This document shows, piece by piece, positions 657-63,321 of a stretch of 64,000 bases of DNA (the stretch's first letter is position 1; the number at the start of each line of letters is the position of its first letter). A program made the position numbers and the translations under genes. The DNA is from an uncultured Candidatus Saccharibacteria bacterium (GTDB taxonomy: Bacteria > Patescibacteriota > UBA1384 > DTJR01): contig CAZAOT010000001.1 of NCBI GenBank assembly GCA_964487045.1, positions 151,863 through 215,862 on the forward strand. Direction: 5' to 3'. The notes beneath the pieces are model-generated. The model was given only the letters and a program-made list of their open reading frames with translations, searched no databases and was not told the DNA's origin.

Positions 657-754
657 GTTGTAAATGTTTTTCAGACACGCTTACGGGAACAGAGGGGAGT
701 TTTCGAGCTCCACTCTCGAAAATGCTCGGCAATGGTCTTCAAAACATTTACAAC
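657..754 (+). promoter_or_regulatory. Structured pnp leader: long hairpin closed by a 14-bp perfect inverted repeat
   Basis: GTTGTAAATGTTTT (657-670) pairs with AAAACATTTACAAC (741-754). There are internal sub-hairpins (GAGTTTTCGAG/CTCGAAAATGCTC). It lies between rpsO and pnp, where E. coli has the RNase III-processed autoregulatory hairpin. Confidence 0.5.
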
Positions 755-3167: not shown

Positions 3168-4235
3168 CTAGCCCCAACTGATCTTAAGAGCCAGGCGACT
3201 CCTGCGATGCGCAAATGCACTGAAAACCTTTGATAGAGCCTCTGGAACATTAAAGGTTGTTACAGTGCGTTCGCAGTAGAACGCCAGATTCTGACCGTAA
3301 TGGCTGCAGTCAGTATGTGCAGCTAACTCGATCATATCCGTCAGAGAGCGACTGACGCTCGTCCGACTTTCGACCGACGTATAGATTCCGTAGATTGTGT
3401 CTGGAACATCAAGCTCGCGCAGTGTCGCGAACAAGGTCCTAGCGTCGTAAGTAGCACAATTACCGAGCTCGCGTATCTCGTTGCAGAGCAGATCGAGTCG
3501 CTCGGCGGGATCCTCAGGGAGGGGTGCAGGTGTGTCAAAGCAAGGCTGATGCAGTTCGGACCATGCCGCTACTGCGAGGAAAGCAAGAGTCCACCTGGGC
3601 TTCTTGATCAGGGAGTCTTGGACGATGATATAGATAGAACCATCCTCCCTGAACTCGAGATCCTGCAGGCTCTTGTAGGCGTCCTGCAGGAGACCGATCG
3701 CATCCACGTATACGGGGCTGGGTCCAGTCCCACACTGGATGCTCTCGTACTTGGGCCAGCTCTCATCGATACAGAGCTGGTAGAGCTTGCGAATGGGGAT
3801 CTGCTCCAGGTACGGAATCTCAAGCAGGAGTTTATTAAGCTCCGTAGCCTGTTCCTGGGTCATGTGGTTCAAATACCACTGCTGGGCGGCCCAGATAACA
3901 TCGTTCCACTCGTAGCTCGGGTCCGAAAACGGGCCTTGGCAATGCCAGCCGTACTGCGAAGTAGCGAGCTTGATCGCTTGTTCGATCACCATAGAACTCC
4001 TGTGAATCGAATCCACGAGCACAACCACGGTCCGTCTATTGAGCTGTCTTCCGAACAAGATGAGCTGCTCGGCAGGAAACCGCTCCATTTCGGGAGCATT
4101 CGACAGCAGGATCTCGAGCTGCTGCTCGTAGTAGGTCTGGTCGCCGTCTTTGGGCTGATCGGTCATTTCATGTACCTGCTTTCTATCGGCGTTCTTGTTG
4201 AAGCCAGCTACTCGGGCATGTGCAGGTCGCGCCAT
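3168..4235 (-). CDS. hypothetical protein in a GC-rich island (start uncertain; the alternative Met gives ...4169)
   Basis: Long ORF in ~56% GC DNA flanked by ~40% GC genes. No recognisable domain. The antisense ORF 3549..4241 is taken as a GC artefact. Confidence 0.5.
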   Translation of the reverse strand: MARPAHARVAGFNKNADRKQVHEMTDQPKDGDQTYYEQQLEILLSNAPEMERFPAEQLILFGRQLNRRTVVVLVDSIHRSSMVIEQAIKLATSQYGWHCQGPFSDPSYEWNDVIWAAQQWYLNHMTQEQATELNKLLLEIPYLEQIPIRKLYQLCIDESWPKYESIQCGTGPSPVYVDAIGLLQDAYKSLQDLEFREDGSIYIIVQDSLIKKPRWTLAFLAVAAWSELHQPCFDTPAPLPEDPAERLDLLCNEIRELGNCATYDARTLFATLRELDVPDTIYGIYTSVESRTSVSRSLTDMIELAAHTDCSHYGQNLAFYCERTVTTFNVPEALSKVFSAFAHRRSRLALKISWG

Positions 4236-4879
4236 GCCTGAGCTGCGAGCATGATCGGAGGTAAGACATGGAGATAGTGAATCTCGTGCATAATGCCTTG
4301 ACTACGAAGATATAGAATTCCCTCCGCCCGATTCCATTCTCGCCTGAAAGCAGGAGAGAGAACAAGGTAGTACAGCTCAGGGAGTCTAAGAGAAAGAACG
4401 CTTCTATCACCATCGGTTGATGTGAAACCACTGAAGCTAGTCGTCCCAGTGCTCGAGGAGCACTTGAGAAGAGTCGTGAGCGGGAAGCGGTCAGTTGTCG
4501 GAGCGCCAAGAAGCAAGTTGCGTTCCTCTTCATCCAACTCCTGTACCGCTTCGTAGAGAAGCTTGAGCGTGGGGGCGATCACGGCCATCTTCGAGAAACG
4601 GATGGCGACGACTGCTTCCCACCACTTGTCGGCGTAGATGAAGTCATCTATGCCTTCGTGCCTGACTCGGTAGTAGAATGCTCCGCCGAACGGTTCAGGT
4701 ATGATAGTGGTGGTGGTATTCAGCAGCACCTGCAAGACCTCTTCGACAGGGTTTAGCGAGGTCCTGACCAGGATACAGCTGGACAAGCCAGCTTCAACGC
4801 CTGCTTCAGCGAGCTCGGTAGCGGTGATCTCTCGTCTGCCGAGCGCTAGATCAAGAAGCGTCTGTCGGAATTGTTCCAT
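4208..4879 (-). CDS. hypothetical protein in a GC-rich island (start set at MEQFRQ..., behind GGGAGGA RBS)
   Basis: The track ORF 4208..4984 was shortened to the Met preceded by GGGAGGACATTGACATG. The leader upstream is conserved with that of the next gene. Confidence 0.5.
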   Translation of the reverse strand: MEQFRQTLLDLALGRREITATELAEAGVEAGLSSCILVRTSLNPVEEVLQVLLNTTTTIIPEPFGGAFYYRVRHEGIDDFIYADKWWEAVVAIRFSKMAVIAPTLKLLYEAVQELDEEERNLLLGAPTTDRFPLTTLLKCSSSTGTTSFSGFTSTDGDRSVLSLRLPELYYLVLSPAFRREWNRAEGILYLRSQGIMHEIHYLHVLPPIMLAAQAWRDLHMPE

Positions 4880-4950
4880 GTCAATGTCCTCCCATTTTGG
4901 GTGGTTTCTAATGCAAGATTGCATAAGGGGAAATAATATCATTTTTGTAA
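4880..4950 (-). promoter_or_regulatory. Conserved leader copy A, including the palindrome ATGCAAGATTGCAT (4911-4924)
   Basis: About 70 nt aligns with 6104-6175 (copy B): ...CCATTTTGG..TTCTAATGCAAGATTGCATAAGGGGAAATAATATCATTTT.. It contains a 6-2-6 inverted repeat ATGCAA-GA-TTGCAT. Confidence 0.45.
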
Positions 4951-5026
4951 AAAAAAAGAAAGCCACCCAGAGTGCTTGGGGCACGGAGGGTGGCTTGAAA
5001 TCAGTCGCGCAAGTGGACTTGGCCAG

Positions 5027-6103
5027 CTAGTCGGGGTGCTTGGCGAGCCACTGGTTCAGGGCTTCGAACACCTGAATCCAGGGCGAGCCTGCGAGGATAT
5101 AGACCTCGCCGGGCGTGTCGTGGTACCAGATCTTCATGCTGCCGTCAGCTTGAAGATCGCACTTCACGACAGAAGGAGCGATTTCCTCCATGATCTGGAG
5201 GGTATTCAGCACAACCGTCTTGTCGTTCAGCTGGGCCTCGACGTGATCAGACAGACCAGCTATGCGAGCTAGACTACGGATCTCGTAGTAGTCCGGATCC
5301 TCCTGGTCCGGCACCTCATTGAGGTAGTCGAGAAGCGTCTGCATCGTAGGCGCTACCGGCAAGTCGCCTGGTGCGTGCTTAATCGCCCAAAGACGGGCGA
5401 CGAGCAGAACGATGTAGTAGCGCGCCATACTGAGATTGTCCTCACGGATCTCCCAGTGCCCGAGTGGCGTCTCCAGGGAAATGTGCCCTGTCGAGATCTC
5501 GCAAGGGAAAGCGAAGCCGAGGACAAGCTCGATGGCCTTCTCGGCGCTGATGGTCGTATAGCCTTGGCAGTCGCCGTGCACGAAGTGCAGCTTGAAGGTC
5601 CCGCTCTCACAGAGGCGCAGTGCCTCGTTGATGGGGAAATTCTGTAGATCTGCCCACTTCTTGATCTCATCTAGATCGCAGGTGCGGCCAGCTAACTCGA
5701 GCATGCGCTCGAGTTCGTCACGTGATTGCGGAGGTATTTCAGTACCTTTCTGCCCTGTAGGGGCGGGGAAGATTTCGGTCGGGACTGAAATGCCCCGCCT
5801 GATGCAGATGGCGACAAGTGCGTCGCGCCATCGTCCAACCTCGAGCAATGTGCTTTCAAGCAAAATCGCACTAGGCTCCGTTGCCGGAAAACCCATGCGG
5901 TTATTGTAGAGAGCGTCGGCAAAAAGCGTTCGAATCGACCAAGCCTTCTGTTTGGAATTGGGCAGTTTGATCTCCGGGGGAAAGCCAGCCGCGATGCCTA
6001 CTTCGATGATGCGCTCCAGTTGGAACGCTCCACTTTCGCAGGCCTCGCGGCAAAGCTCAGAATACTCCTGCTCGGCTCGCGATTGTTGTTCTCTAGCATC
6101 CAT
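5027..6103 (-). CDS. hypothetical protein in a GC-rich island
   Basis: 358-aa ORF in ~57% GC DNA. The start ATG is preceded by GGAGAAAGTTGACAT, the same RBS context as the neighbouring gene. No recognisable domain. Confidence 0.55.
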   Translation of the reverse strand: MDAREQQSRAEQEYSELCREACESGAFQLERIIEVGIAAGFPPEIKLPNSKQKAWSIRTLFADALYNNRMGFPATEPSAILLESTLLEVGRWRDALVAICIRRGISVPTEIFPAPTGQKGTEIPPQSRDELERMLELAGRTCDLDEIKKWADLQNFPINEALRLCESGTFKLHFVHGDCQGYTTISAEKAIELVLGFAFPCEISTGHISLETPLGHWEIREDNLSMARYYIVLLVARLWAIKHAPGDLPVAPTMQTLLDYLNEVPDQEDPDYYEIRSLARIAGLSDHVEAQLNDKTVVLNTLQIMEEIAPSVVKCDLQADGSMKIWYHDTPGEVYILAGSPWIQVFEALNQWLAKHPD

Positions 6104-16005: not shown

Positions 16006-16164
16006 GCCATACGATTGACTTGGCAAGTACTTTGTGCTACGCTAGAATGCACTTAAGCACATTTATATGTGTGATCATGGTTTCAAGCTAAAGAGCTGGG
16101 AGGGCTCAGTTAGCTGAAGCTAGGCAGTGTACGAACAGCTTGTCCACCATTGGAGGGTGATTTG

Positions 16165-16404
16165 ATGTCAGATGCTTTCGCGATCGATGGAGTCGGTCCT
16201 GAGCTGGAGTTGAAGCTTGATCCTGACGAGGTATCGAGGGCATATCGCCTCGCGATCCGCCACGTCAAGAAGCAGGAGAGCAGGATCGCACGCCACGCGA
16301 AGAGATCGGCAGTGAAGAGTCGCAAGCTGCCACCCCGTACTCGGGGAGGCGAGGGAGTATTCCGGACGGCGCACGCTGTCCGGGCTGCAAGTCCGAGGCG
16401 GTAG
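16165..16404 (+). CDS. hypothetical small basic protein (GC-rich island)
   Basis: ATG 7 nt after GGAGGG. ~60% GC. Arg/Lys-rich C-terminus. Followed by a hairpin. Confidence 0.35.
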   Translation: MSDAFAIDGVGPELELKLDPDEVSRAYRLAIRHVKKQESRIARHAKRSAVKSRKLPPRTRGGEGVFRTAHAVRAASPRR

Positions 16405-16420
16405 AACCGCCTCTACATGA

Positions 16421-16452
16421 GAATCTGGCCGGTGGGGAGCTCACGCTCCGCA
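16421..16452 (+). terminator. hairpin terminator
   Basis: GGCCGGTG-n16-CACCGGCC followed by TTTTCT. Confidence 0.4.
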
Positions 16453-16545
16453 CCGGCCTTTTCTAAAGATCATTTATTAAAATTAAAGTAAAAGAAAGCC
16501 GCCTCAAAGAGGCGGCTTGGGGTGTCATTTAGTTCGTGCCGATTG

Positions 16546-17421
16546 CTACTCGAGCCAATCGCGCATCCGAGCCATCGTTTGATCGATGGCGTTGTTGGTG
16601 GGGATCTTGCCCTGTGGGTCGGGATACCCGAGGTACTGGCAAGTTTCCTCGTGCGACCAGCTGCATATTAGCTGTCGAAGCGCGACGTACAGTGCGCAAA
16701 AACGTCCCATCTGACTGATCCGCCAGACATGGTAGAATCCGATCGCATTTTCGGAACAATGAACGTACTCGGCCTCATTGTCAAAGCGTTCGTCTGGGTG
16801 AAACTGGCTCTCGCAGTAGTTCTGGGCGAGAGTTGTCAGTAAGCCATCTGCGATGACTTGCTTGCGACAATCGGGGCAGGAAGCGAGTGCTTGGTAGGCA
16901 CGTTCGCCTTGTCCCCGCCTAATCTGGCTCTGACATAAGATCCACAGCCAGTGCCAGCAGTCGCCACCTAACCATTCGGGTTCTTCGATGTCAACTCCTC
17001 CTGGGTATGGGTGGTCAAGGTTATAGTATCCAAATGAAAGATGGGGGCGGTCACAGAGATGCTGCGCTTCTTCTACAGTGAATTCAGCCGGGCCGTTGAA
17101 AGCGAAATGTACGTCATTCAGGTCGCCGATGAGATCGGCGAAAAGCTCCATGACAGGAGAAGCCAGAATTAGCCGCTCGGTCAGGCCACGCAAGCGCGCA
17201 CTGGCGCGAGCCATGGGCCAGAAAAAGCCAAGTCGTCTTGTCGCCGAGATAGTCGGCTTGTGGTGGCCGAGCCCCTGGTCACCGGTCTTAGCCCGAACGA
17301 ACGCTTCTCGGAATGCTTCCACTGGCGCCCCATTCATTGCTAAGTCATGGATGACATACCAGGCGAAGTGGATCGGAGTTGTAAACCCGTTTTCTAGATT
17401 CTCGCTTTGCACGTGCATCAC
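16546..17421 (-). CDS. hypothetical protein (GC-rich island)
   Basis: 291-aa ORF in ~57% GC DNA. No recognisable domain. The hairpin AAGCCGCCTC-aaa-GAGGCGGCTT lies just past its 3' end. Confidence 0.5.
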   Translation of the reverse strand: MMHVQSENLENGFTTPIHFAWYVIHDLAMNGAPVEAFREAFVRAKTGDQGLGHHKPTISATRRLGFFWPMARASARLRGLTERLILASPVMELFADLIGDLNDVHFAFNGPAEFTVEEAQHLCDRPHLSFGYYNLDHPYPGGVDIEEPEWLGGDCWHWLWILCQSQIRRGQGERAYQALASCPDCRKQVIADGLLTTLAQNYCESQFHPDERFDNEAEYVHCSENAIGFYHVWRISQMGRFCALYVALRQLICSWSHEETCQYLGYPDPQGKIPTNNAIDQTMARMRDWLE

Positions 17422-17558: not shown

Positions 17559-17793
<235 letters not shown>

Positions 17794-17893
17794 AATAGCC
17801 ACTAAAGGCTATTTTTGTTATATTTAGGCGAGATAAAAAGGAGACAATATAGATCTTAATAATATTAAATTAAATCCACCCCTTGAGTTTATT

Positions 17894-36808: not shown

Positions 36809-37270
36809 ATGCCCAAGAGGAAGCAACCGAACTTTCGCAAGGCGCTTCAGCTGATGCTTAGCTACATCTTTGAGCACCAGTTGGTGGTCAATGATGTGGT
36901 GTTTATGCTCTCGACCGATGTAATGCTCAAGAATCCTCTGATCGTGCAGACGCTTGAAGAAGCAGGGTGCATTGAGCGTCTTGGTAGGCTGTCTCTCACA
37001 ACCCAGGCCAAGTTCAACAGAGCTTACCCTGGCTGCATGAGAGCAGTTCACGACAAGGCGCTCCAGAAGTTCCCGAAGATGAAGTGCCCATGGGGACATT
37101 GGATTTGGGTCGTTAATACGACCCGTTATGACCAGATGAATCCACATCTTCTGCTGTCTCGTCCGCTCCTTGAGCAAGTCGAAAGGCTCTATGGTAAGGA
37201 CACGCAGGTTAGAGCTGTTGACGAAGAAGATCGTCCGACGGACGAGAAGCCATGGCGGGCTGAGCCGTAG
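36809..37270 (+). CDS. hypothetical protein (GC-rich island)
   Basis: 153-aa ORF, ~55% GC. The RBS-like GGGAAGGGACTGAGG precedes its ATG. The antisense ORF 36737..37177 is judged spurious. Confidence 0.4.
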   Translation: MPKRKQPNFRKALQLMLSYIFEHQLVVNDVVFMLSTDVMLKNPLIVQTLEEAGCIERLGRLSLTTQAKFNRAYPGCMRAVHDKALQKFPKMKCPWGHWIWVVNTTRYDQMNPHLLLSRPLLEQVERLYGKDTQVRAVDEEDRPTDEKPWRAEP

Positions 37271-37400
37271 AAGCTAAGAGAAGATCGCACAGGCGCCCGA
37301 AGCAAGATGCGTTGCATCATGCGCAGGGCGCCTTTCCTGTTGCAAAAATCTTAAAATAGTTTAACAATACATCTACTACGCGGGCAAAGGAGGCTCAGGC

Positions 37401-37493
37401 ATGTATTACAAGCCAGTCGTTAGCCGGACTCTCGTGCACCATGAGTGGACGGCTGCGATCCTGGACAATTTGGTCCCACCTCTGCCACCGTAG
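37401..37493 (+). CDS. possible 30-aa peptide ORF (GC-rich, strong RBS AAAGGAGG)
   Basis: ATG 8 nt after AAAGGAGG. Very weak otherwise. Confidence 0.15.
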   Translation: MYYKPVVSRTLVHHEWTAAILDNLVPPLPP

Positions 37494-37533
37494 ATGGGCC
37501 ATAGGCCCACCGGGGAGCCTTGCTCCTCAAAAA

Positions 37534-37560
37534 GGCGCCCCGTCACTGCGGCGGGGCGCC
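37534..37560. terminator. GC hairpin terminator (bidirectional)
   Basis: GGCGCCCCG-n9-CGGGGCGCC followed by TTCTCTCTTT. Confidence 0.45.
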
Positions 37561-37585
37561 TTCTCTCTTTAATCTTATCTAGTTT

Positions 37586-38436: not shown

Positions 38437-38757
38437 AAGAGTGACTAGTTTTCCACAGGCAAGCGTGACCAACCCGAACAAACTTACATAACTTAACTTC
38501 GATATAGAGTAAGTTATATAACATTTTGATAATCTATATAACATATTTGACAAGTCGCACGCTTGATGGTTCTATGGATTTACATTAAATAAGTGTGAGA
38601 TGGGTAAGCGCGGTTAAATACCGTCACAGTCCCGCTACCGTAAAGTCGGAAAACCACTCATACATTCATCCCGAGGAGGAATTATGCAGCATACTTAGGT
38701 GTTTTTTAACTAGCTCAAAAGAGCTTTTTTTAGTCTCTTAAAAATATAAGGAGTAAA

Positions 38758-47217: not shown

Positions 47218-47292
47218 CGGCCTGTAGCTCATTGGTAGAGCGACGCTCTTATAAGGCGTATGTAGATGGTTCGATCCCATCCAGGCCGACCA
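47218..47292 (+). tRNA. tRNA-Ile (anticodon UAU as encoded), CCA encoded
   Basis: CGGCCTG / CAGGCCG acceptor, anticodon stem ACGCT/GGCGT (one G.U), loop CTTATAA, T-arm GATGG-TTCGATC-CCATC. Confidence 0.75.
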
Positions 47293-47508
47293 AACTTCGC
47301 TTCTCCGAAGCTTCGCTTGGCAAGCCACGTATGTAGCCTTGAATGGGCTATTTTATTTATATTTGGATCGCCTTGGCGGGATCGAAGGGCGGAGCTCGAC
47401 GGAGCGAGCCCAGGCCTGGAGGCGAATTCAGCAGAATTCGACCGGAAGGCGATCCCATCTGTAATCGATTTTTCAGTAGAAATTTACTGAATTGCGATCC
47501 CATCCAGG
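47293..47508 (+). repeat. tRNA-trailer element: conserved hairpin motif (47293-47327), then a GC-rich segment ending in a 13-nt direct repeat of the tRNA 3' region (GATCCCATCCAGG, 47496-47508)
   Basis: GATCCCATCCAGG at 47273-85 and 47496-508. GGATCGCC...GGCGATCC long-range pairing (47378.. / 47449..). Confidence 0.45.
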
Positions 47509-47633
47509 ATCTTGTCCAATATCTACATTTAGGATTAATGGTTCATTTAGTAGATATACGCTCGTGACTTGACAAATGGAAAATAATGTTATATAATAGT
47601 TATAGTAACATTACGAACGTGAGGGAGGGGAAA

Positions 47634-62412: not shown

Positions 62413-62489
<77 letters not shown>

Positions 62490-62777
62490 GATTTATTAAT
62501 TGGCGCCATGGGCGCCATTTAATAAAGACTTGGGAGCGTGAGGATTCGAAAGCCGGAGCGCGACGGCGCCGCGTTTCGGGGGTGGAACCCGAAACTATAC
62601 CAAAAGAATAATCACGGGGTCGAGCGCGATTTCAGCATTTTCGAGGGTGGAACTCGAAAATCACAATAATCGAATGAATATCATCGACGCGTGACCGAAT
62701 CCGGTTCGTTTACAGCGGGTCGAGGATTCGAAATAGTAAATAGTTTTTTGCTCCACTCAAAAAACGCCCCGCTACCA
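62490..62777 (+). repeat. GC-rich ~275-nt insert after tRNA-fMet ending in a direct repeat of the tRNA 3' end (CCCCGCTACCA at 62767-62777)
   Basis: Begins with the palindromic GGCGCCATGGGCGCC. Two hairpins share the loop GGTGGAAC (TTTCGGG..CCCGAAA and TTTTCGAG..CTCGAAAA). GGATTCGAAAG appears at both ends (62530, 62729). The head is about 85% identical to the 17648 insert. Confidence 0.5.
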
Positions 62778-63019
62778 AACTTCGTTTCTTCGAAACTACG
62801 CTTGGCAAGCCAGATTTTATGGAGAAAGAGGATTTGAGTCTAAAAGCGGCTTAGAGCGCTTTTTTTGTTAGGAGCGGGGTTTACCCCGTAAAGTATTTTA
62901 AGCATCAAGGGGGTTGTACGGTCTAATAAATCATGTTTGTTGGTAAGGCAAGTTTTATATTAAAATATACTAACGGGGTTTACTTTATAGGTTCAAAATA
63001 GTAGAATAATTTGGAAAAA

Positions 63020-63060
63020 GGTAGTGTAGCTCAGTTGGTTAGAGCGAAGGAATCACCCCG
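63020..63060 (+). pseudogene. tRNA 5'-half fragment (duplicate of the first ~36 nt of the downstream CAU tRNA)
   Basis: GGTAGTGTAGCTCAGTTGGTTAGAGCGAAGGAATCA matches the downstream GGTAGCATAGCTCAGTGGTAGAGCGAAGGAATCA. There is no T-arm or acceptor 3' strand. Confidence 0.45.
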
Positions 63061-63071
63061 TTAATTAATAT

Positions 63072-63146
63072 GGTAGCATAGCTCAGTGGTAGAGCGAAGG
63101 AATCATAACCCTTAGGTCGGAGGTTCGAGCCCTCCTGCTACCACCA
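63072..63146 (+). tRNA. tRNA with CAU anticodon (elongator Met or lysidine-Ile2), CCA encoded
   Basis: GGTAGCA/TGCTACC acceptor, loop ATCATAA, T-arm GGAGG-TTCGAGC-CCTCC. Flanked by the inverted repeats CCCCGTTAATTA (63057-68) and TAATTAACGGGG (63152-63). Confidence 0.85.
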
Positions 63147-63321
63147 TAATATAATTAACGGGGCAAGTAACCCTTGGTCACAGGCATGTCCCGTAGAAAC
63201 CGCTTCTGTAATAACACTATGTAATAGGTTTTACAGAAAGGAGTTCTACTGGGATTCGAATCATATGGAACTAGTTCGTTAATCGAACTATAAATTAATA
63301 TTTAAGGTTAATTCTTACATC

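What the first reader, a model, noticed from the sequence alone, without database searches (positions are those of the whole stretch)
62490..62777. tRNA-fMet followed by a ~275-nt GC-rich insert with paired hairpins sharing a GGTGGAAC loop, terminated by a repeat of the tRNA 3' end
CCCCGCTACCA (62479-62489) recurs at 62767-62777. Inside are two hairpins with compensatory stems but the same loop: TTTCGGG-GGTGGAA-CCCGAAA at 62561-62584 and TTTTCGAG-GGTGGAA-CTCGAAAA at 62647-62672 (an internal tandem duplication with covariation). There is the palindrome GGCGCCATGGGCGCC. GGATTCGAAAG appears at both ends (62530, 62729). The segment GACGCGTGACCGAATCCGG mimics a T-arm. The co-varying stems argue that the hairpin structure, not just the sequence, is under selection. 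That is unusual for inert integration scars and suggests a structured RNA or a protein-binding DNA site.
Basis: seen in the sequence. Interest (0 to 1): 0.65.

Follow-up and report, generated by a model that had tools for sequence, protein, structure and literature searches.

The report
Structured insertion element behind tRNA genes
The GC-rich stretch after the initiator tRNA gene is a worn, composite copy of an apparently undescribed family of about 150-base non-coding elements that insert behind tRNA and tmRNA genes of Patescibacteria, duplicate the end of the gene, and fold into a conserved three-armed structure.

Summary
CCCCGCTACCA occurs at 62479-62489 and 62767-62777, and the GC-rich insert lies between.

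It is not an isolated oddity. The window holds two cleaner relatives, behind tRNA-Ser (17693-17796) and tRNA-Ile (47370-47464). A motif scan and a covariance model found about 70 more in metagenome contigs.

- **Position:** they follow tRNA or tmRNA genes, always on the same strand.
- **Layout:** tRNA, spacer hairpin, inverted copy of the tRNA 3' end, conserved core of about 72 nt, direct copy of the tRNA 3' end from T-loop C56.
- **Structure:** a three-way junction; 19 of 23 pairs show compensatory changes.
- **Insertion:** orthologous Berkelbacteria-like loci give filled and empty sites. The inserted block is about 152 nt and duplicates 21 nt of the target.
- **Constraint:** after insertion the core stayed 97% identical while the spacer fell to 67%.
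- **Databases:** no Rfam, phage, plasmid or IMG/VR match, and no recurrent neighbouring gene.

The fMet copy carries two extra GGTGGAA-loop hairpins and a second partial insertion. Those hairpins belong to a separate module family.

Best reading: a non-autonomous structured insertion element that targets the tRNA T-loop and 3' end. The enzyme and the intermediate are unknown.

The parts
62413..62489 (+). Initiator-type tRNA-Met(CAT) gene with encoded CCA. Its last 21 nt (62469-62489, T-loop C56 to CCA) are copy 1 of the duplicated target (O1).
   Evidence: ARAGORN. Rfam tRNA, 61.4 bits.
62492..62526 (+). Spacer hairpin H0: TTTATTAATTGGCGCC-ATG-GGCGCCATTTAATAAA. It holds the GGCGCCATGGGCGCC palindrome.
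   Evidence: Inverted repeat I6. It is the tip of the 80-nt hairpin 62469-62548. An equivalent hairpin lies in the spacer of most family members.
62530..62548 (+). 5' arm: TTGGGAGCGTGAGGATTCG. This is an inverted, slightly deleted copy of the tRNA 3' end, with GAGGATTCG/CGAATCCTC, AGCG/CGCT and TGG/CCA pairings.
   Evidence: (I1) and the fold (dG -40.8, z -7.1).
62546..62698 (+). Conserved core, interrupted. It runs TCGAAAGCCGGAG, then the P2 hairpin CGCGACGGCGC, then the P3 5' strand CGGGGTCGAGCGCGATTTCAGCA (62615-62637), then the P3 3' strand and end CGACGCGTGACCGA (62685-62698). The 3' strand of P2a (GAGGC) is lost.
   Evidence: Covariance model R1 aligns 62534-62710 to model positions 1-96, 43.4 bits, E 2e-9. 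P3 folds as expected.
62573..62595 (+). Accessory hairpin 1: GTTTCGGG-GGTGGAA-CCCGAAAC, plus an A-rich linker to 62614. It is inserted between P2 and P3.
   Evidence: It is absent at this position in 48 canonical members.
62637..62661 (+). Accessory hairpin 2: ATTTTCGAG-GGTGGAA-CTCGAAAAT, plus a linker to 62684. It is inserted in the apical CAGCAG loop of P3.
62696..62702 (+). Start of the 3' arm (CGAATCC), a copy of tRNA positions 56-62. It pairs with GGATTCG of the 5' arm to form P1.
62703..62766 (+). Secondary insertion that splits the 3' arm. It holds a second inverted copy of the tRNA 3' end (AGCGGGTCGAGGATTCGAA, 62714-62732), a truncated core start (TCGAAAT), and the opposite-orientation hairpin GTTTTTTG-CTCCACT-CAAAAAAC (62743-62765).
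   Evidence: I2, 17 of 19 complementary to 62467-62485.. A similar truncated form occurs in L095.
62767..62777 (+). Rest of the 3' arm (O2): CCCCGCTACCA, the displaced copy of the tRNA acceptor 3' strand plus ACCA.
17693..17796 (+). Intact family member behind tRNA-Ser(GGA) (17559-17647). The core lies between GGATTCG and CGAATCC. CGAATCCCGCCCTCTCCGCCAA is duplicated at 17627-17648 and 17775-17796.
   Evidence: Sequence. R1 scores 100.5 bits. The direct repeat is 22 nt.
47370..47464 (+). Family member behind tRNA-Ile(TAT) (47218-47292). The arms are GGGATCG and CGATCCC. The 3' arm is split by a small hairpin insertion, and CGATCCCATCCAGG is repeated at about 47497.
   Evidence: Sequence. R1 scores 74.3 bits.

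Best explanation
**What it is (shown).** 62490-62777 is a composite, partly degraded copy of a non-coding insertion element family, here called E.

A canonical E adds about 150 nt behind a tRNA or tmRNA gene:
- a spacer hairpin;
- a 5' arm that is the reverse complement of the gene's 3' end;
- a conserved core of about 72 nt;
- a 3' arm that is a second, direct copy of the gene's 3' end, starting at T-loop C56.

The gene stays intact because one copy of its 3' end remains joined to its body.

**Fold (shown).** On the tRNA-sense strand the two arms pair as P1 and close a three-way junction. P2 has a conserved internal loop that could hold tandem G.A pairs. P3 is a long hairpin with a YAGCAR loop.

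**The fMet copy (shown).** It has picked up two GGTGGAA-loop hairpin modules and a second partial insertion in its 3' arm. It has lost one strand of P2a.

**How it works (inferred).**
- E is non-autonomous and is moved in trans.
- Insertion is anchored on the universal T-loop sequence TTCGA and produces a target duplication from C56 to just past the gene's end.
- The single-stranded fold of the core is what the unknown machinery, or the host, selects for.
- The 5' arm is complementary to the target. It may act as a guide-like recognition segment that is kept matched to the local tRNA through pairing with the 3' arm.
For: **Family membership**
- R1 hits in the window: 100.5, 74.3 and 43.4 bits, behind three of the four tRNA genes.

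**Recurrence**
- The metagenome motif scan found 108 stretches, about 70 of them true members. The model gave 74 hits at E <= 1e-6.

**Association with tRNA and tmRNA genes**
- In contigs that hold E, 73 of 127 tRNA and tmRNA genes have an E within 300 nt downstream, all on the same strand. These cover 17 amino-acid families plus tmRNA.

**Arms**
- The direct repeat always starts at C56 and ends 0-22 nt past the gene.
- Genes without an encoded CCA have arms without CCA that carry the gene's own flank. The arm is therefore a copy of the DNA, or of the primary transcript, not of mature tRNA.
- An inverted copy of the 3' end is found only where E is present.

**Structure**
- 95% of cells are paired against 75% in shuffles.
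- 19 of 23 pairs have compensatory changes (0 of 500 shuffles reach this).
- Slid controls give 30-49% paired.
- Non-Watson-Crick cells favour the sense strand: 92 G.U or G.A against 26 A.C or C.U.

**Insertion**
- L076 and L067 are filled sites.
- The orthologous loci L132, L133, L134 and L135 are empty. They have the same tRNA-Met and the same downstream YkuD-type gene.
- The native flank resumes after the second repeat.
- The syntenic fMet-ftsH spacer is 40 nt in a Berkelbacteria relative and about 830 nt here.

**Constraint after insertion**
- Core 97%, spacer 67%, intergenic flanks about 49%.

**No linked gene**
- No recurrent neighbouring ORF.

**Repeated hits on the same target**
- Tandem and nested copies occur in L083, L089, L068, L031, and in the window's fMet and Ile copies.
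Against: - No enzyme, intermediate or donor form was found, so the mechanism is inference.
- A transposon would be expected to carry fixed terminal repeats. Here both arms are derived from the target, which no standard transposition chemistry explains.
- The duplication varies in length (21 to more than 40 nt), unlike a fixed staggered cut.
- Copies within one genome are often as divergent as copies from different genomes (0.58-0.89 against a median of 0.73). A single locus kept its core at 97%. Both fit a host-retained functional RNA better than a purely selfish repeat.
- Empty sites could in principle arise by precise deletion between the two direct repeats.
- Only one set of orthologues was examined.
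- Members were first found with a sequence pattern, so apparent invariance of the core motifs is partly ascertainment.
- Many copies have a terminator-like hairpin between the tRNA and the core, so transcription of the core is uncertain.
Confidence: 0.6

Rival explanations
1. E is a host-beneficial small RNA gene paired with each tRNA. It would be a minihelix-capped RNA whose closing stem mimics the tRNA's T-stem, acceptor 3' strand and CCA. Such an RNA could be handled by, or compete for, tRNA-end enzymes such as RNase P, RNase Z and the CCA-adding enzyme, or act as a decoy for factors that target tRNA ends. In this reading insertion is only how new copies arise.
For: - The core stayed 97% identical at an orthologous locus while neighbouring non-coding DNA fell to 49-67%.
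- The E core is 91.6% identical between genomes whose coding DNA is 63-68% identical.
- Covariation is strong and the fold is sense-strand specific.
- E is always on the tRNA strand.
- Paralogues within a genome are divergent yet keep the fold.
- In some copies P1 extends to 14-16 bp, covering the T-stem and the acceptor strand.
Against: - Only 57% of tRNA genes in E-bearing contigs have one, and close relatives lack it at the same locus.
- In most copies the outer part of the 5' arm is decayed, so a tRNA-like 12-bp helix is usually absent.
- A terminator-like hairpin often precedes the core.
- The arms copy gene flanks that a mature tRNA mimic would not need.
- There are no expression data.
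Confidence: 0.25
2. The repeats are attL and attR scars of integrase-mediated genetic elements (phage, plasmid or island) that integrated into the tRNA gene and were later deleted down to a remnant.
For: - tRNA and tmRNA genes, a T-loop crossover position, and a duplicated block running from the T-loop to just past the 3' end are classic features of integrase att sites. This rests on established knowledge and was not tested here.
- The duplication is seen.
- GC-rich islands of orphan ORFs lie nearby in the window.
Against: - The same 72-nt core follows at least 17 different tRNA species and tmRNA, often several per contig. Integrases are specific for one site.
- No integrase, and no recurrent ORF of any kind, lies between or next to the repeats.
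- The complete inserted unit is about 152 nt at a freshly compared filled and empty site.
- There are no matches in IMG/VR, phage or plasmid collections.
- The sequence next to the distal repeat does not resemble a T-stem 5' strand, which an integrase core site would.
Confidence: 0.07
3. The layout is a by-product of replication template switching at two hairpins, the T-arm and the terminator. That would give a direct-inverted-direct triplication of the tRNA 3' end, a tandem inversion duplication. No dedicated element would be involved, and the fMet hairpins would be chance palindromes.
For: - The order O1, hairpin, inverted O, junction, O2 is exactly that of a tandem inversion duplication whose junctions lie at two palindromes.
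- The duplication varies in length.
Against: - The second junction always carries the same conserved, covarying 72-nt core, which template switching within one locus cannot create.
- The spacer is absent from the empty site, so it is imported and not local.
- tRNA genes without E show no inverted copies.
Confidence: 0.05

Closest known systems
Displaced tRNA/tmRNA 3'-end repeats at attachment sites of integrase-borne islands and prophages
   Same: - Targets tRNA and tmRNA genes.
- The breakpoint lies in the T-loop.
- The gene is restored by one copy of the duplicated block, and the other copy is displaced downstream.
- The duplicated block runs slightly past the 3' end.
   Different: - The whole insert is about 150 nt and has no gene.
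- One core serves many different tRNAs.
- An additional inverted copy of the target is present.
- The core has a covarying single-strand fold.
MITEs and REP/BIME-type or Rickettsia-palindromic-element-type small structured repeats
   Same: - Short, non-coding, multi-copy and intergenic.
- Inverted terminal segments.
- Modular hairpins that nest into each other.
- GC-rich in an AT-rich genome.
   Different: - The terminal inverted segments are not element-specific. They are copied from each local target.
- Target choice is strict: the tRNA or tmRNA 3' end, in one orientation only.
- No related transposase-bearing parent was found.
- One copy shows strong purifying constraint after insertion.
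Folded single-strand recombination sites (integron attC, CTX-phage attP)
   Same: - Structure is conserved with compensatory changes rather than sequence alone.
- One strand is the active one.
- A hairpin rebuilds a duplex that resembles the target site.
   Different: - The attC consensus boxes are not evident.
- The E core sequence is itself highly conserved.
- No integron integrase or Xer context was tested or seen.
Guide-plus-scaffold RNAs of mobile elements (group II intron EBS, IscB/TnpB omega RNA, IS110 bridge RNA)
   Same: A conserved structured scaffold lies directly next to a segment of about 18-21 nt that is complementary to the insertion target.
   Different: - No associated protein gene.
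- The guide-like arm is paired in cis with a copy of the target.
- The scaffold has no Rfam match.
- This is a resemblance in layout only.
E. coli tyrT distal repeats and GC-rich palindromes flanking mitochondrial tRNA genes (Neurospora PstI palindromes, yeast GC clusters)
   Same: - Repeats behind a tRNA gene that begin with the tRNA's last nucleotides, and that can be tandem.
- GC-rich palindromic modules next to tRNA genes in AT-rich genomes.
   Different: - Those repeats lack the conserved three-way-junction core.
- They lack the inverted target copy.
- They do not recur across many tRNA species.
- These comparisons are recalled from memory and were not tested here.

Membership tests
E family defined here (covariance model R1) | Full-length match to the model of arms plus core | tested here: met
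   62534-62710 aligns to model positions 1-96 at 43.4 bits, E 2e-9. With filters off it splits into 25.3 and 9.9 bits.
E family defined here (covariance model R1) | Lies downstream of a tRNA or tmRNA gene on the same strand, with a 3' arm that copies the gene from C56 and a 5' arm complementary to it | tested here: met
   - CGAATCC at 62696-62702 plus CCCCGCTACCA at 62767-62777 copy the tRNA.
- GAGGATTCG at 62540-62548 is complementary.
- The 3' arm is interrupted by 64 nt.
E family defined here (covariance model R1) | Intact P2a, P2b and P3 helices | tested here: inconclusive
   P2b and P3 are present, and P3 carries an inserted hairpin. The 3' strand of P2a (GAGGC) is replaced, so this copy is probably degraded.
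Any Rfam 15 family (including tRNA-like, tmRNA, group I/II intron, ribozymes, HEARO, retron-type RNAs) | Score at or near the family's gathering threshold | tested here: not met
   - Nothing in the insert at gathering threshold.
- Nothing relevant at E <= 10.
- For the intact tRNA-Ser copy, nothing beyond a 17-bit chance hit.
Integrase-type integrated element (attL/attR) | Direct repeat of the tRNA 3' end flanking the insert | tested here: met
Integrase-type integrated element (attL/attR) | An integrase gene or its remnant in the insert, and one specific tRNA target per element family | tested here: not met
   - No ORF with a family match.
- One core at 17 tRNA families plus tmRNA.
- No recurrent neighbouring ORF.
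MITE | Element-specific terminal inverted repeats and a target duplication of fixed length | tested here: not met
   The inverted arms differ with each tRNA and are copies of the target. The duplication is 21 to more than 40 nt.
MITE | A related autonomous element that encodes a transposase | not tested
   Complete genomes could not be scanned. No candidate appeared in 856 kb of loci.
IS200/IS605-derived palindrome-associated element | Insertion 3' of a fixed tetra- or pentanucleotide without target duplication, with subterminal hairpins | tested here: not met
   The junctions do follow TTCGA and end in CCGA, which is suggestive. But a 21-nt duplication is present at the filled site.
Retron non-coding RNA | An adjacent reverse transcriptase gene | tested here: not met
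   The neighbours are an RNase H-like gene and ftsH. No recurrent ORF lies next to members.
tRNA-like RNA or tmRNA | Cloverleaf or tRNA-like domain detectable by ARAGORN or Rfam | tested here: not met
   ARAGORN finds only the four tRNAs. There is no tmRNA or tRNA hit in the insert.

The most novel reading that the evidence does not exclude
E is a programmable, gene-less homing module. A 72-nt scaffold would sit next to an 18-21-nt arm complementary to the 3' end of a tRNA or tmRNA. That arm would guide insertion into, or action on, that gene or its transcript, and would be re-templated from each new target through its pairing with the duplicated 3' end. This would be a new class of nucleic-acid-guided mobile element. 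Alternatively, it could be a tRNA-end mimic RNA with a dedicated role in Patescibacteria tRNA metabolism or defence.
Probability: 0.2. Interest if true: 0.9.

Novelty: new variant of a known kind. Interest (0 to 1): 0.75.

Why it matters
- **Unexpected in reduced genomes.** Patescibacteria have very small genomes, so a multi-copy 150-nt element behind more than half of the tRNA genes in some contigs is unexpected and needs explaining.
- **An unusual combination of traits.** The element has the target choice and gene-restoring duplication of integrative islands, the size of a MITE, and a strongly covarying, sequence-conserved fold like a functional RNA.
- **A likely new mechanism or a new RNA class.** Both arms are derived from the target, which fits no standard transposition chemistry. 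The mechanism is therefore likely to be new, or the element is a new RNA class tied to tRNA 3' ends.
- **Practical use.**
  - The covariance model gives a ready way to annotate these regions.
  - It helps avoid calling them pseudo-tRNAs or island scars.
  - It gives insertion polymorphisms that can serve as strain markers.

Tried and rejected
- **First pattern scans.** A three-loop pattern (GGGTGGAAC...GGGTGGAAC...GCTCCACTC) gave nothing in metagenomes. It gave one hit in IMG/VR (L017) that lies inside an RdRp-like ORF and forms no hairpins, so it is chance. An exact hairpin pattern gave nothing in IMG/VR.
- **Other collections.**
  - BLAST of the insert against phages gave no match.
  - BLAST of the intact tRNA-Ser copy against phages and plasmids gave no match.
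  - The core pattern in IMG/VR gave three chance hits, which the model rejected.
- **The window's own RNase H protein.** The look-up returned only a short contig that ends before the tRNA.
- **Known RNA classes.** tmRNA or two-piece tmRNA, group I intron, twister-like and other ribozymes, Y-RNA-like RNA and retron RNA were considered. None has Rfam or ARAGORN support.
- **Mature-tRNA origin.** The idea that the arms are reverse-transcribed copies of mature tRNA was rejected. Genes without CCA give arms without CCA that carry the genomic flank.
- **Origin of the 5' arm.** The idea that it is the tRNA's own 5' strands (a deleted tRNA copy) was rejected. Next to the core it reads as the complement of the T-loop's 3' half (AATCG), not the 5' half (TTCG).
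- **Strand test on the extended arms.** It was uninformative: 41 G.U against 50 A.C, with unreliable alignments.
- **Within-genome similarity as a sign of recent bursts.** The result was mixed.
- **GC-rich orphan ORFs in the window as possible partners.** No Pfam or PHROG match.
- **Literature.** Five searches found no description of this element. The nearest paper, on group I introns in Patescibacteria tRNA genes (PMC13011429), concerns anticodon-loop introns and not this element.
Full report
**1. The observation**

The window holds four tRNA genes. One is tRNA-Met(CAT) at 62413-62489 (Rfam tRNA 61.4 bits). Its 5' end CGCGGGG and its C1xU72 mismatch mark it as an initiator type.

- **The repeat.** CCCCGCTACCA is exact at 62479-62489 and 62767-62777 and occurs nowhere else in the window.
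- **Composition and fold.** The 277 nt in between have 58-59% G+C in the 62500-62650 region, against 23-42% in the flanks. They contain no credible ORF and fold better than all 200 shuffles (dG -99.2, z -3.6).
- **The hairpins.** They exist, but at 62573-62595 and 62637-62661. The shared GAGGATTCGAAA is at 62540-62551 and 62722-62733.
- **One long hairpin.** The tRNA 3' end, the palindrome and the first GAGGATTCG form a single 80-nt hairpin, 62469-62548 (dG -40.8, z -7.1).

**2. The region really is an insertion**

The closest genome relative found is a Candidatus Berkelbacteria MAG, with 61% identity for the upstream RNase H-like protein. It has the same gene order: RNase H, tRNA-fMet, ftsH. 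Only 40 nt separate the tRNA from the ftsH start codon there, against about 830 nt in the window.

A second relative, L018 (FtsH 70% identical), has a GC-rich insert of about 88 nt behind tRNA-Met. That insert ends in a 21-nt repeat of the tRNA's 3' end.

**3. It is one member of a family**

Scanning the window for GC-rich islands showed the same arrangement behind tRNA-Ser (17559-17647) and tRNA-Ile (47218-47292).

The copies share three motifs:
- TCGAARGSCGGAG;
- GGGGTCG;
- a 7-bp hairpin with an AGCA-containing loop whose stem differs between copies.

They end in GTGACCGA followed by the local tRNA's 3' end. In the window the 5' motif occurs three times, always behind a tRNA.

A gapped pattern built from these copies found 108 stretches in the metagenome collection. 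About 70 are true members. The rest are chance hits in GC-rich coding DNA.

A covariance model (R1) was built from 48 members.
- **In the window.** It scores the tRNA-Ser copy at 100.5 bits and the tRNA-Ile copy at 74.3 bits. The fMet insert scores 43.4 bits over the whole model (E about 2e-9).
- **Elsewhere.** It gives 74 hits at E <= 1e-6 in the fetched loci, including copies that the pattern had missed.
- **Rfam.** Rfam 15 has nothing like it, even at E <= 10 on the intact tRNA-Ser copy.

**4. Anatomy**

A typical unit reads as follows:
1. the tRNA, ending in C56-G57-A58 and then O, which is positions 59 to 76;
2. a spacer of 0-140 nt, commonly about 50, usually holding a hairpin that often looks like an intrinsic terminator;
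3. a 5' arm that is the reverse complement of O, with 6-16 contiguous pairs;
4. the core of 70-74 nt, from TCGAA to CCGA;
5. a direct copy of O.

**The direct repeat**
- It always begins at C56 and ends 0-8 nt past the gene, and up to 22 nt past it in one case.
- Eight genes without an encoded CCA have arms without CCA that share the gene's own flank. The arm is therefore a copy of the DNA or of the primary transcript, not of mature tRNA.

**Where E is found**
- Two loci (L053 and L077) carry the element behind a tmRNA gene.
- In contigs that hold at least one element, 73 of 127 tRNA and tmRNA genes have one within 300 nt downstream.
- All of these are on the gene's strand. They cover 17 amino-acid families.
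- tRNA genes without the element lack an inverted copy of their own 3' end.
- Tandem copies (L083, L089, L068) and nested or partial copies (L031, and the window's tRNA-Ile and fMet copies) show that the duplicated 3' end is hit repeatedly.

**5. Structure**

RNAalifold on the 48-sequence alignment gives three helices:
- P1, formed by the arms plus TCG/CGA;
- P2a, GCC/GGC, with flips to GGC/GCC, GTC/GAC and CGC/GCG;
- P3, a long hairpin. Its basal helix switches between GGTC/GACC, GCCC/GGGC, GCCT/AGGC and GGCT/AGCC. Its apical stem varies freely under a conserved YAGCAR loop.

| Measure | 48 sequences | 73 distinct model-aligned sequences |
|---|---|---|
| Cells forming a standard pair | 95.7% | 95.0% |
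| Same, in shuffles | 77.2% | 75.3% |
| Same, with partners slid | 29-45% | 30-49% |
| Pairs with compensatory change | 14 of 23 | 19 of 23 (0 of 500 shuffles reach this) |
| Covariation score (shuffled) | 0.497 (0.144) | 0.492 (0.140) |

The non-Watson-Crick cells are mostly G.U and G.A on the tRNA-sense strand. There are 92 of these, against 26 of the types that would indicate folding of the other strand. The G.U excess comes from a single column.

The sense strand therefore folds, as RNA or as single-stranded DNA. P2 also has a conserved internal loop (CGGAG opposite CGAGG) that could hold tandem G.A pairs. That last point is my reading of the alignment, not a test.

**6. Insertion and constraint**

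L076 and L067 are orthologous: 1769 nt aligned at 82%. Both carry the element between tRNA-Met and a YkuD/PG_binding_4 gene.

Homologues of that protein at 77%, 61% and 57% identity lie in loci L132, L133, L134 and L135. Each has a tRNA-Met directly upstream and no element (0 model hits at E <= 1).

Alignment shows where the native flank resumes. In the empty site, ATCTAG...TTTGTTAAAATTA...ATG follows the tRNA's CCA. In the filled site the same sequence follows the second repeat. The inserted block is about 152 nt: the spacer, the 5' arm, the core and a 21-nt second copy of C56 to CCA. The spacer is therefore part of the insert.

Identity between the two filled sites:

| Segment | Identity |
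|---|---|
| tRNA | 98.7% |
| Core | 97.3% |
| 5' arm | 92% |
| 3' arm | 76% |
| Spacer | 67% |
| Flanking intergenic DNA | about 49% |

A second pair, L064 and L095, shows the element at 91.6% while the surrounding coding DNA is 63-68% identical.

The element is therefore both an insertion and under strong constraint afterwards. Gene conversion from other copies could mimic that constraint, and I could not exclude it.

**7. Distribution and partners**

Three lineages could be named:
- the window, L018 and L076, which are Berkelbacteria-like;
- L011, from a Candidatus Kaiserbacteria MAG;
- L125, whose RNase Y is 100% identical to that of a Patescibacteria group MAG, with Paceibacteria and Kaiserbacteria relatives.

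No true member was found in IMG/VR, phage or plasmid collections. No protein family recurs within 2.5 kb of the elements beyond clusters of four loci or fewer. The element is non-autonomous, or it needs no dedicated gene nearby.

**8. The fMet copy in detail**

Reading 62490-62777 against the family:

| Coordinates | Module |
|---|---|
| 62492-62526 | Spacer hairpin |
| 62530-62548 | 5' arm |
| 62546-62572 | Core start and P2b |
| 62573-62595 | Accessory hairpin 1, with its linker running to 62614. It replaces the P2a 3' strand. |
| 62615-62637 | P3 5' strand |
| 62637-62661 | Accessory hairpin 2, inside the P3 loop, with its linker running to 62684 |
| 62685-62698 | P3 3' strand and core end |
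| 62696-62702 | First 7 nt of the 3' arm |
| 62703-62766 | A 64-nt secondary insertion. It carries another inverted copy of the tRNA end, a truncated core start and the opposite-orientation hairpin. |
| 62767-62777 | Rest of the arm |

The copy is thus a mosaic and probably no longer a fully intact element.

The GGTGGAA-loop hairpins are a family of their own.
- There are 16 hairpins with stems of at least 7 bp and loop RGYGGAR in 856 kb, against 0.85 in shuffles and 0-2 for control loops.
- They occur in both orientations.
- Some lie inside elements (L033, L068, L122). Others lie elsewhere, including window 701-721 between rpsO and pnp.

**9. Mechanism**

Shown:
- insertion behind the gene, with a duplication that starts in the T-loop;
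- a sense-strand fold;
- no linked gene;
- repeated hits on the duplicated end.

Inferred:
- The universal T-loop sequence anchors the event. TTCGA reads the same at both core junctions, as TCGA... and ...CCGA.
- The 5' arm is complementary to the target and lies directly next to a conserved scaffold. It may therefore serve as a recognition segment.
- The pairing of the arms may keep it matched to the local tRNA.

The order direct, inverted, direct also resembles a tandem inversion duplication. Template switching alone cannot supply the conserved core or the imported spacer.

I could not identify the enzyme or the intermediate. A dumbbell-shaped single-stranded circle with the order O, spacer, inverted O, core, integrating by a crossover within O, would reproduce the observed order. 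That is speculation.

**10. Comparison and verdict**

The element shares its target and its gene-restoring duplication with integrase-borne islands. It shares its size and multiplicity with MITEs and REP-like repeats. It shares structure-based conservation with folded single-strand recombination sites. It shares a guide-plus-scaffold layout with RNAs of some mobile elements. It fails the defining tests of each (see the membership table).

Five literature searches found no description of it.

I rate it a new variant of a known kind, small structured insertion elements. There is a real chance that it is something further removed.

Main caveats:
- Members were first found with a pattern.
- Only one set of filled and empty sites was analysed.
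- Taxonomy is known for only a few contigs.
- There are no expression data.

Noticed in passing
window 62778-62812 and 47293-47327; L076 about 404-444; L002 4405-4480 (minus strand): A second small element has the form AACTTCG-hairpin-CTTCGCTTGGCAAGCCA. It sits directly after a tRNA CCA, or after the displaced CCA. In L076 a 36-41-nt version (TCCTTCGCC...GGCACAGCCC) is present right after the arm, and it is absent from the orthologous L067, so it is an indel of its own.
   Followed up: partly
window 63022-63270: A 5' half of a tRNA-Met-like gene (63022-63056) breaks after anticodon position 35. A perfect 12-bp inverted repeat follows (CCCCGTTAATTA at 63056, TAATTAACGGGG at 63152). It encloses a complete tRNA-Met gene (63072-63146). 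After it the anticodon-loop 3' half resumes (TAACCCTT...), but no recognisable T-arm follows. It looks like a tRNA gene disrupted by a cassette that carries another tRNA.
   Followed up: partly
window 63185-63255; L019 170-250: A conserved long hairpin (GTCCCGTAG..CCGCTTCTG...CAGAAAG) lies between the tRNA-Met gene and ftsH, both in the window and in a relative. It could be an ftsH leader or a small RNA. There is no Rfam hit.
   Followed up: no
window 701-721: A hairpin, TTTCGAG-CTCCACT-CTCGAAA, lies in the rpsO-pnp spacer on the mRNA strand. It is the same module as the fMet GGTGGAA hairpins but in the opposite orientation. Its loop is complementary to GUGGA.
   Followed up: partly
window 3168-6103, 16110-17421, 37181-37580: These are GC-rich islands (60-71% against 41% for the window). 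Their ORFs (355, 258, 358 and 291 aa) have no Pfam or PHROG match. One island lies directly upstream of tRNA-Ser. They are probably foreign DNA.
   Followed up: partly
L134 1000-1263 and 1346-1480: A GIY-YIG ORF lies just upstream of a different tRNA-Met. Downstream lies a displaced 3' end (..GGACCAGGCCCACCA) of the tRNA-Met type found at the orthologous site in L132 and L133. This is a second kind of cassette that replaces a tRNA gene.
   Followed up: no
L018 2836-2968: The 5' part of a minus-strand tRNA-fMet (TACCAGACTGCTCCACCCCGCGTTA) is duplicated 107 nt away. GC-rich hairpins lie in between (CCTGCCGGCAGG, GCTCGCGACGTGAGC) and resemble core modules. The model does not detect it.
   Followed up: no
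L011 7740-8060 (minus strand): This Kaiserbacteria region is a GC-rich array of shuffled core modules (CCGGAG, CAGCAG hairpins, GACCGAGTCC, GAGCGACGGCGAGG). No tRNA gene lies nearby.
   Followed up: no
window 38592-38664: An AdoCbl-II (cobalamin) riboswitch aptamer, 40.7 bits against a gathering score of 36.5.
   Followed up: no
window 47451-47510: The 3' arm of the tRNA-Ile element is split by a 33-35-nt hairpin insert (TGTAATCGATTTTTCAGTAGAAATTTACTGAATTG). The insert is flanked by CGATCCCATC repeats, so it is another small insertion into the duplicated tRNA end.
   Followed up: no
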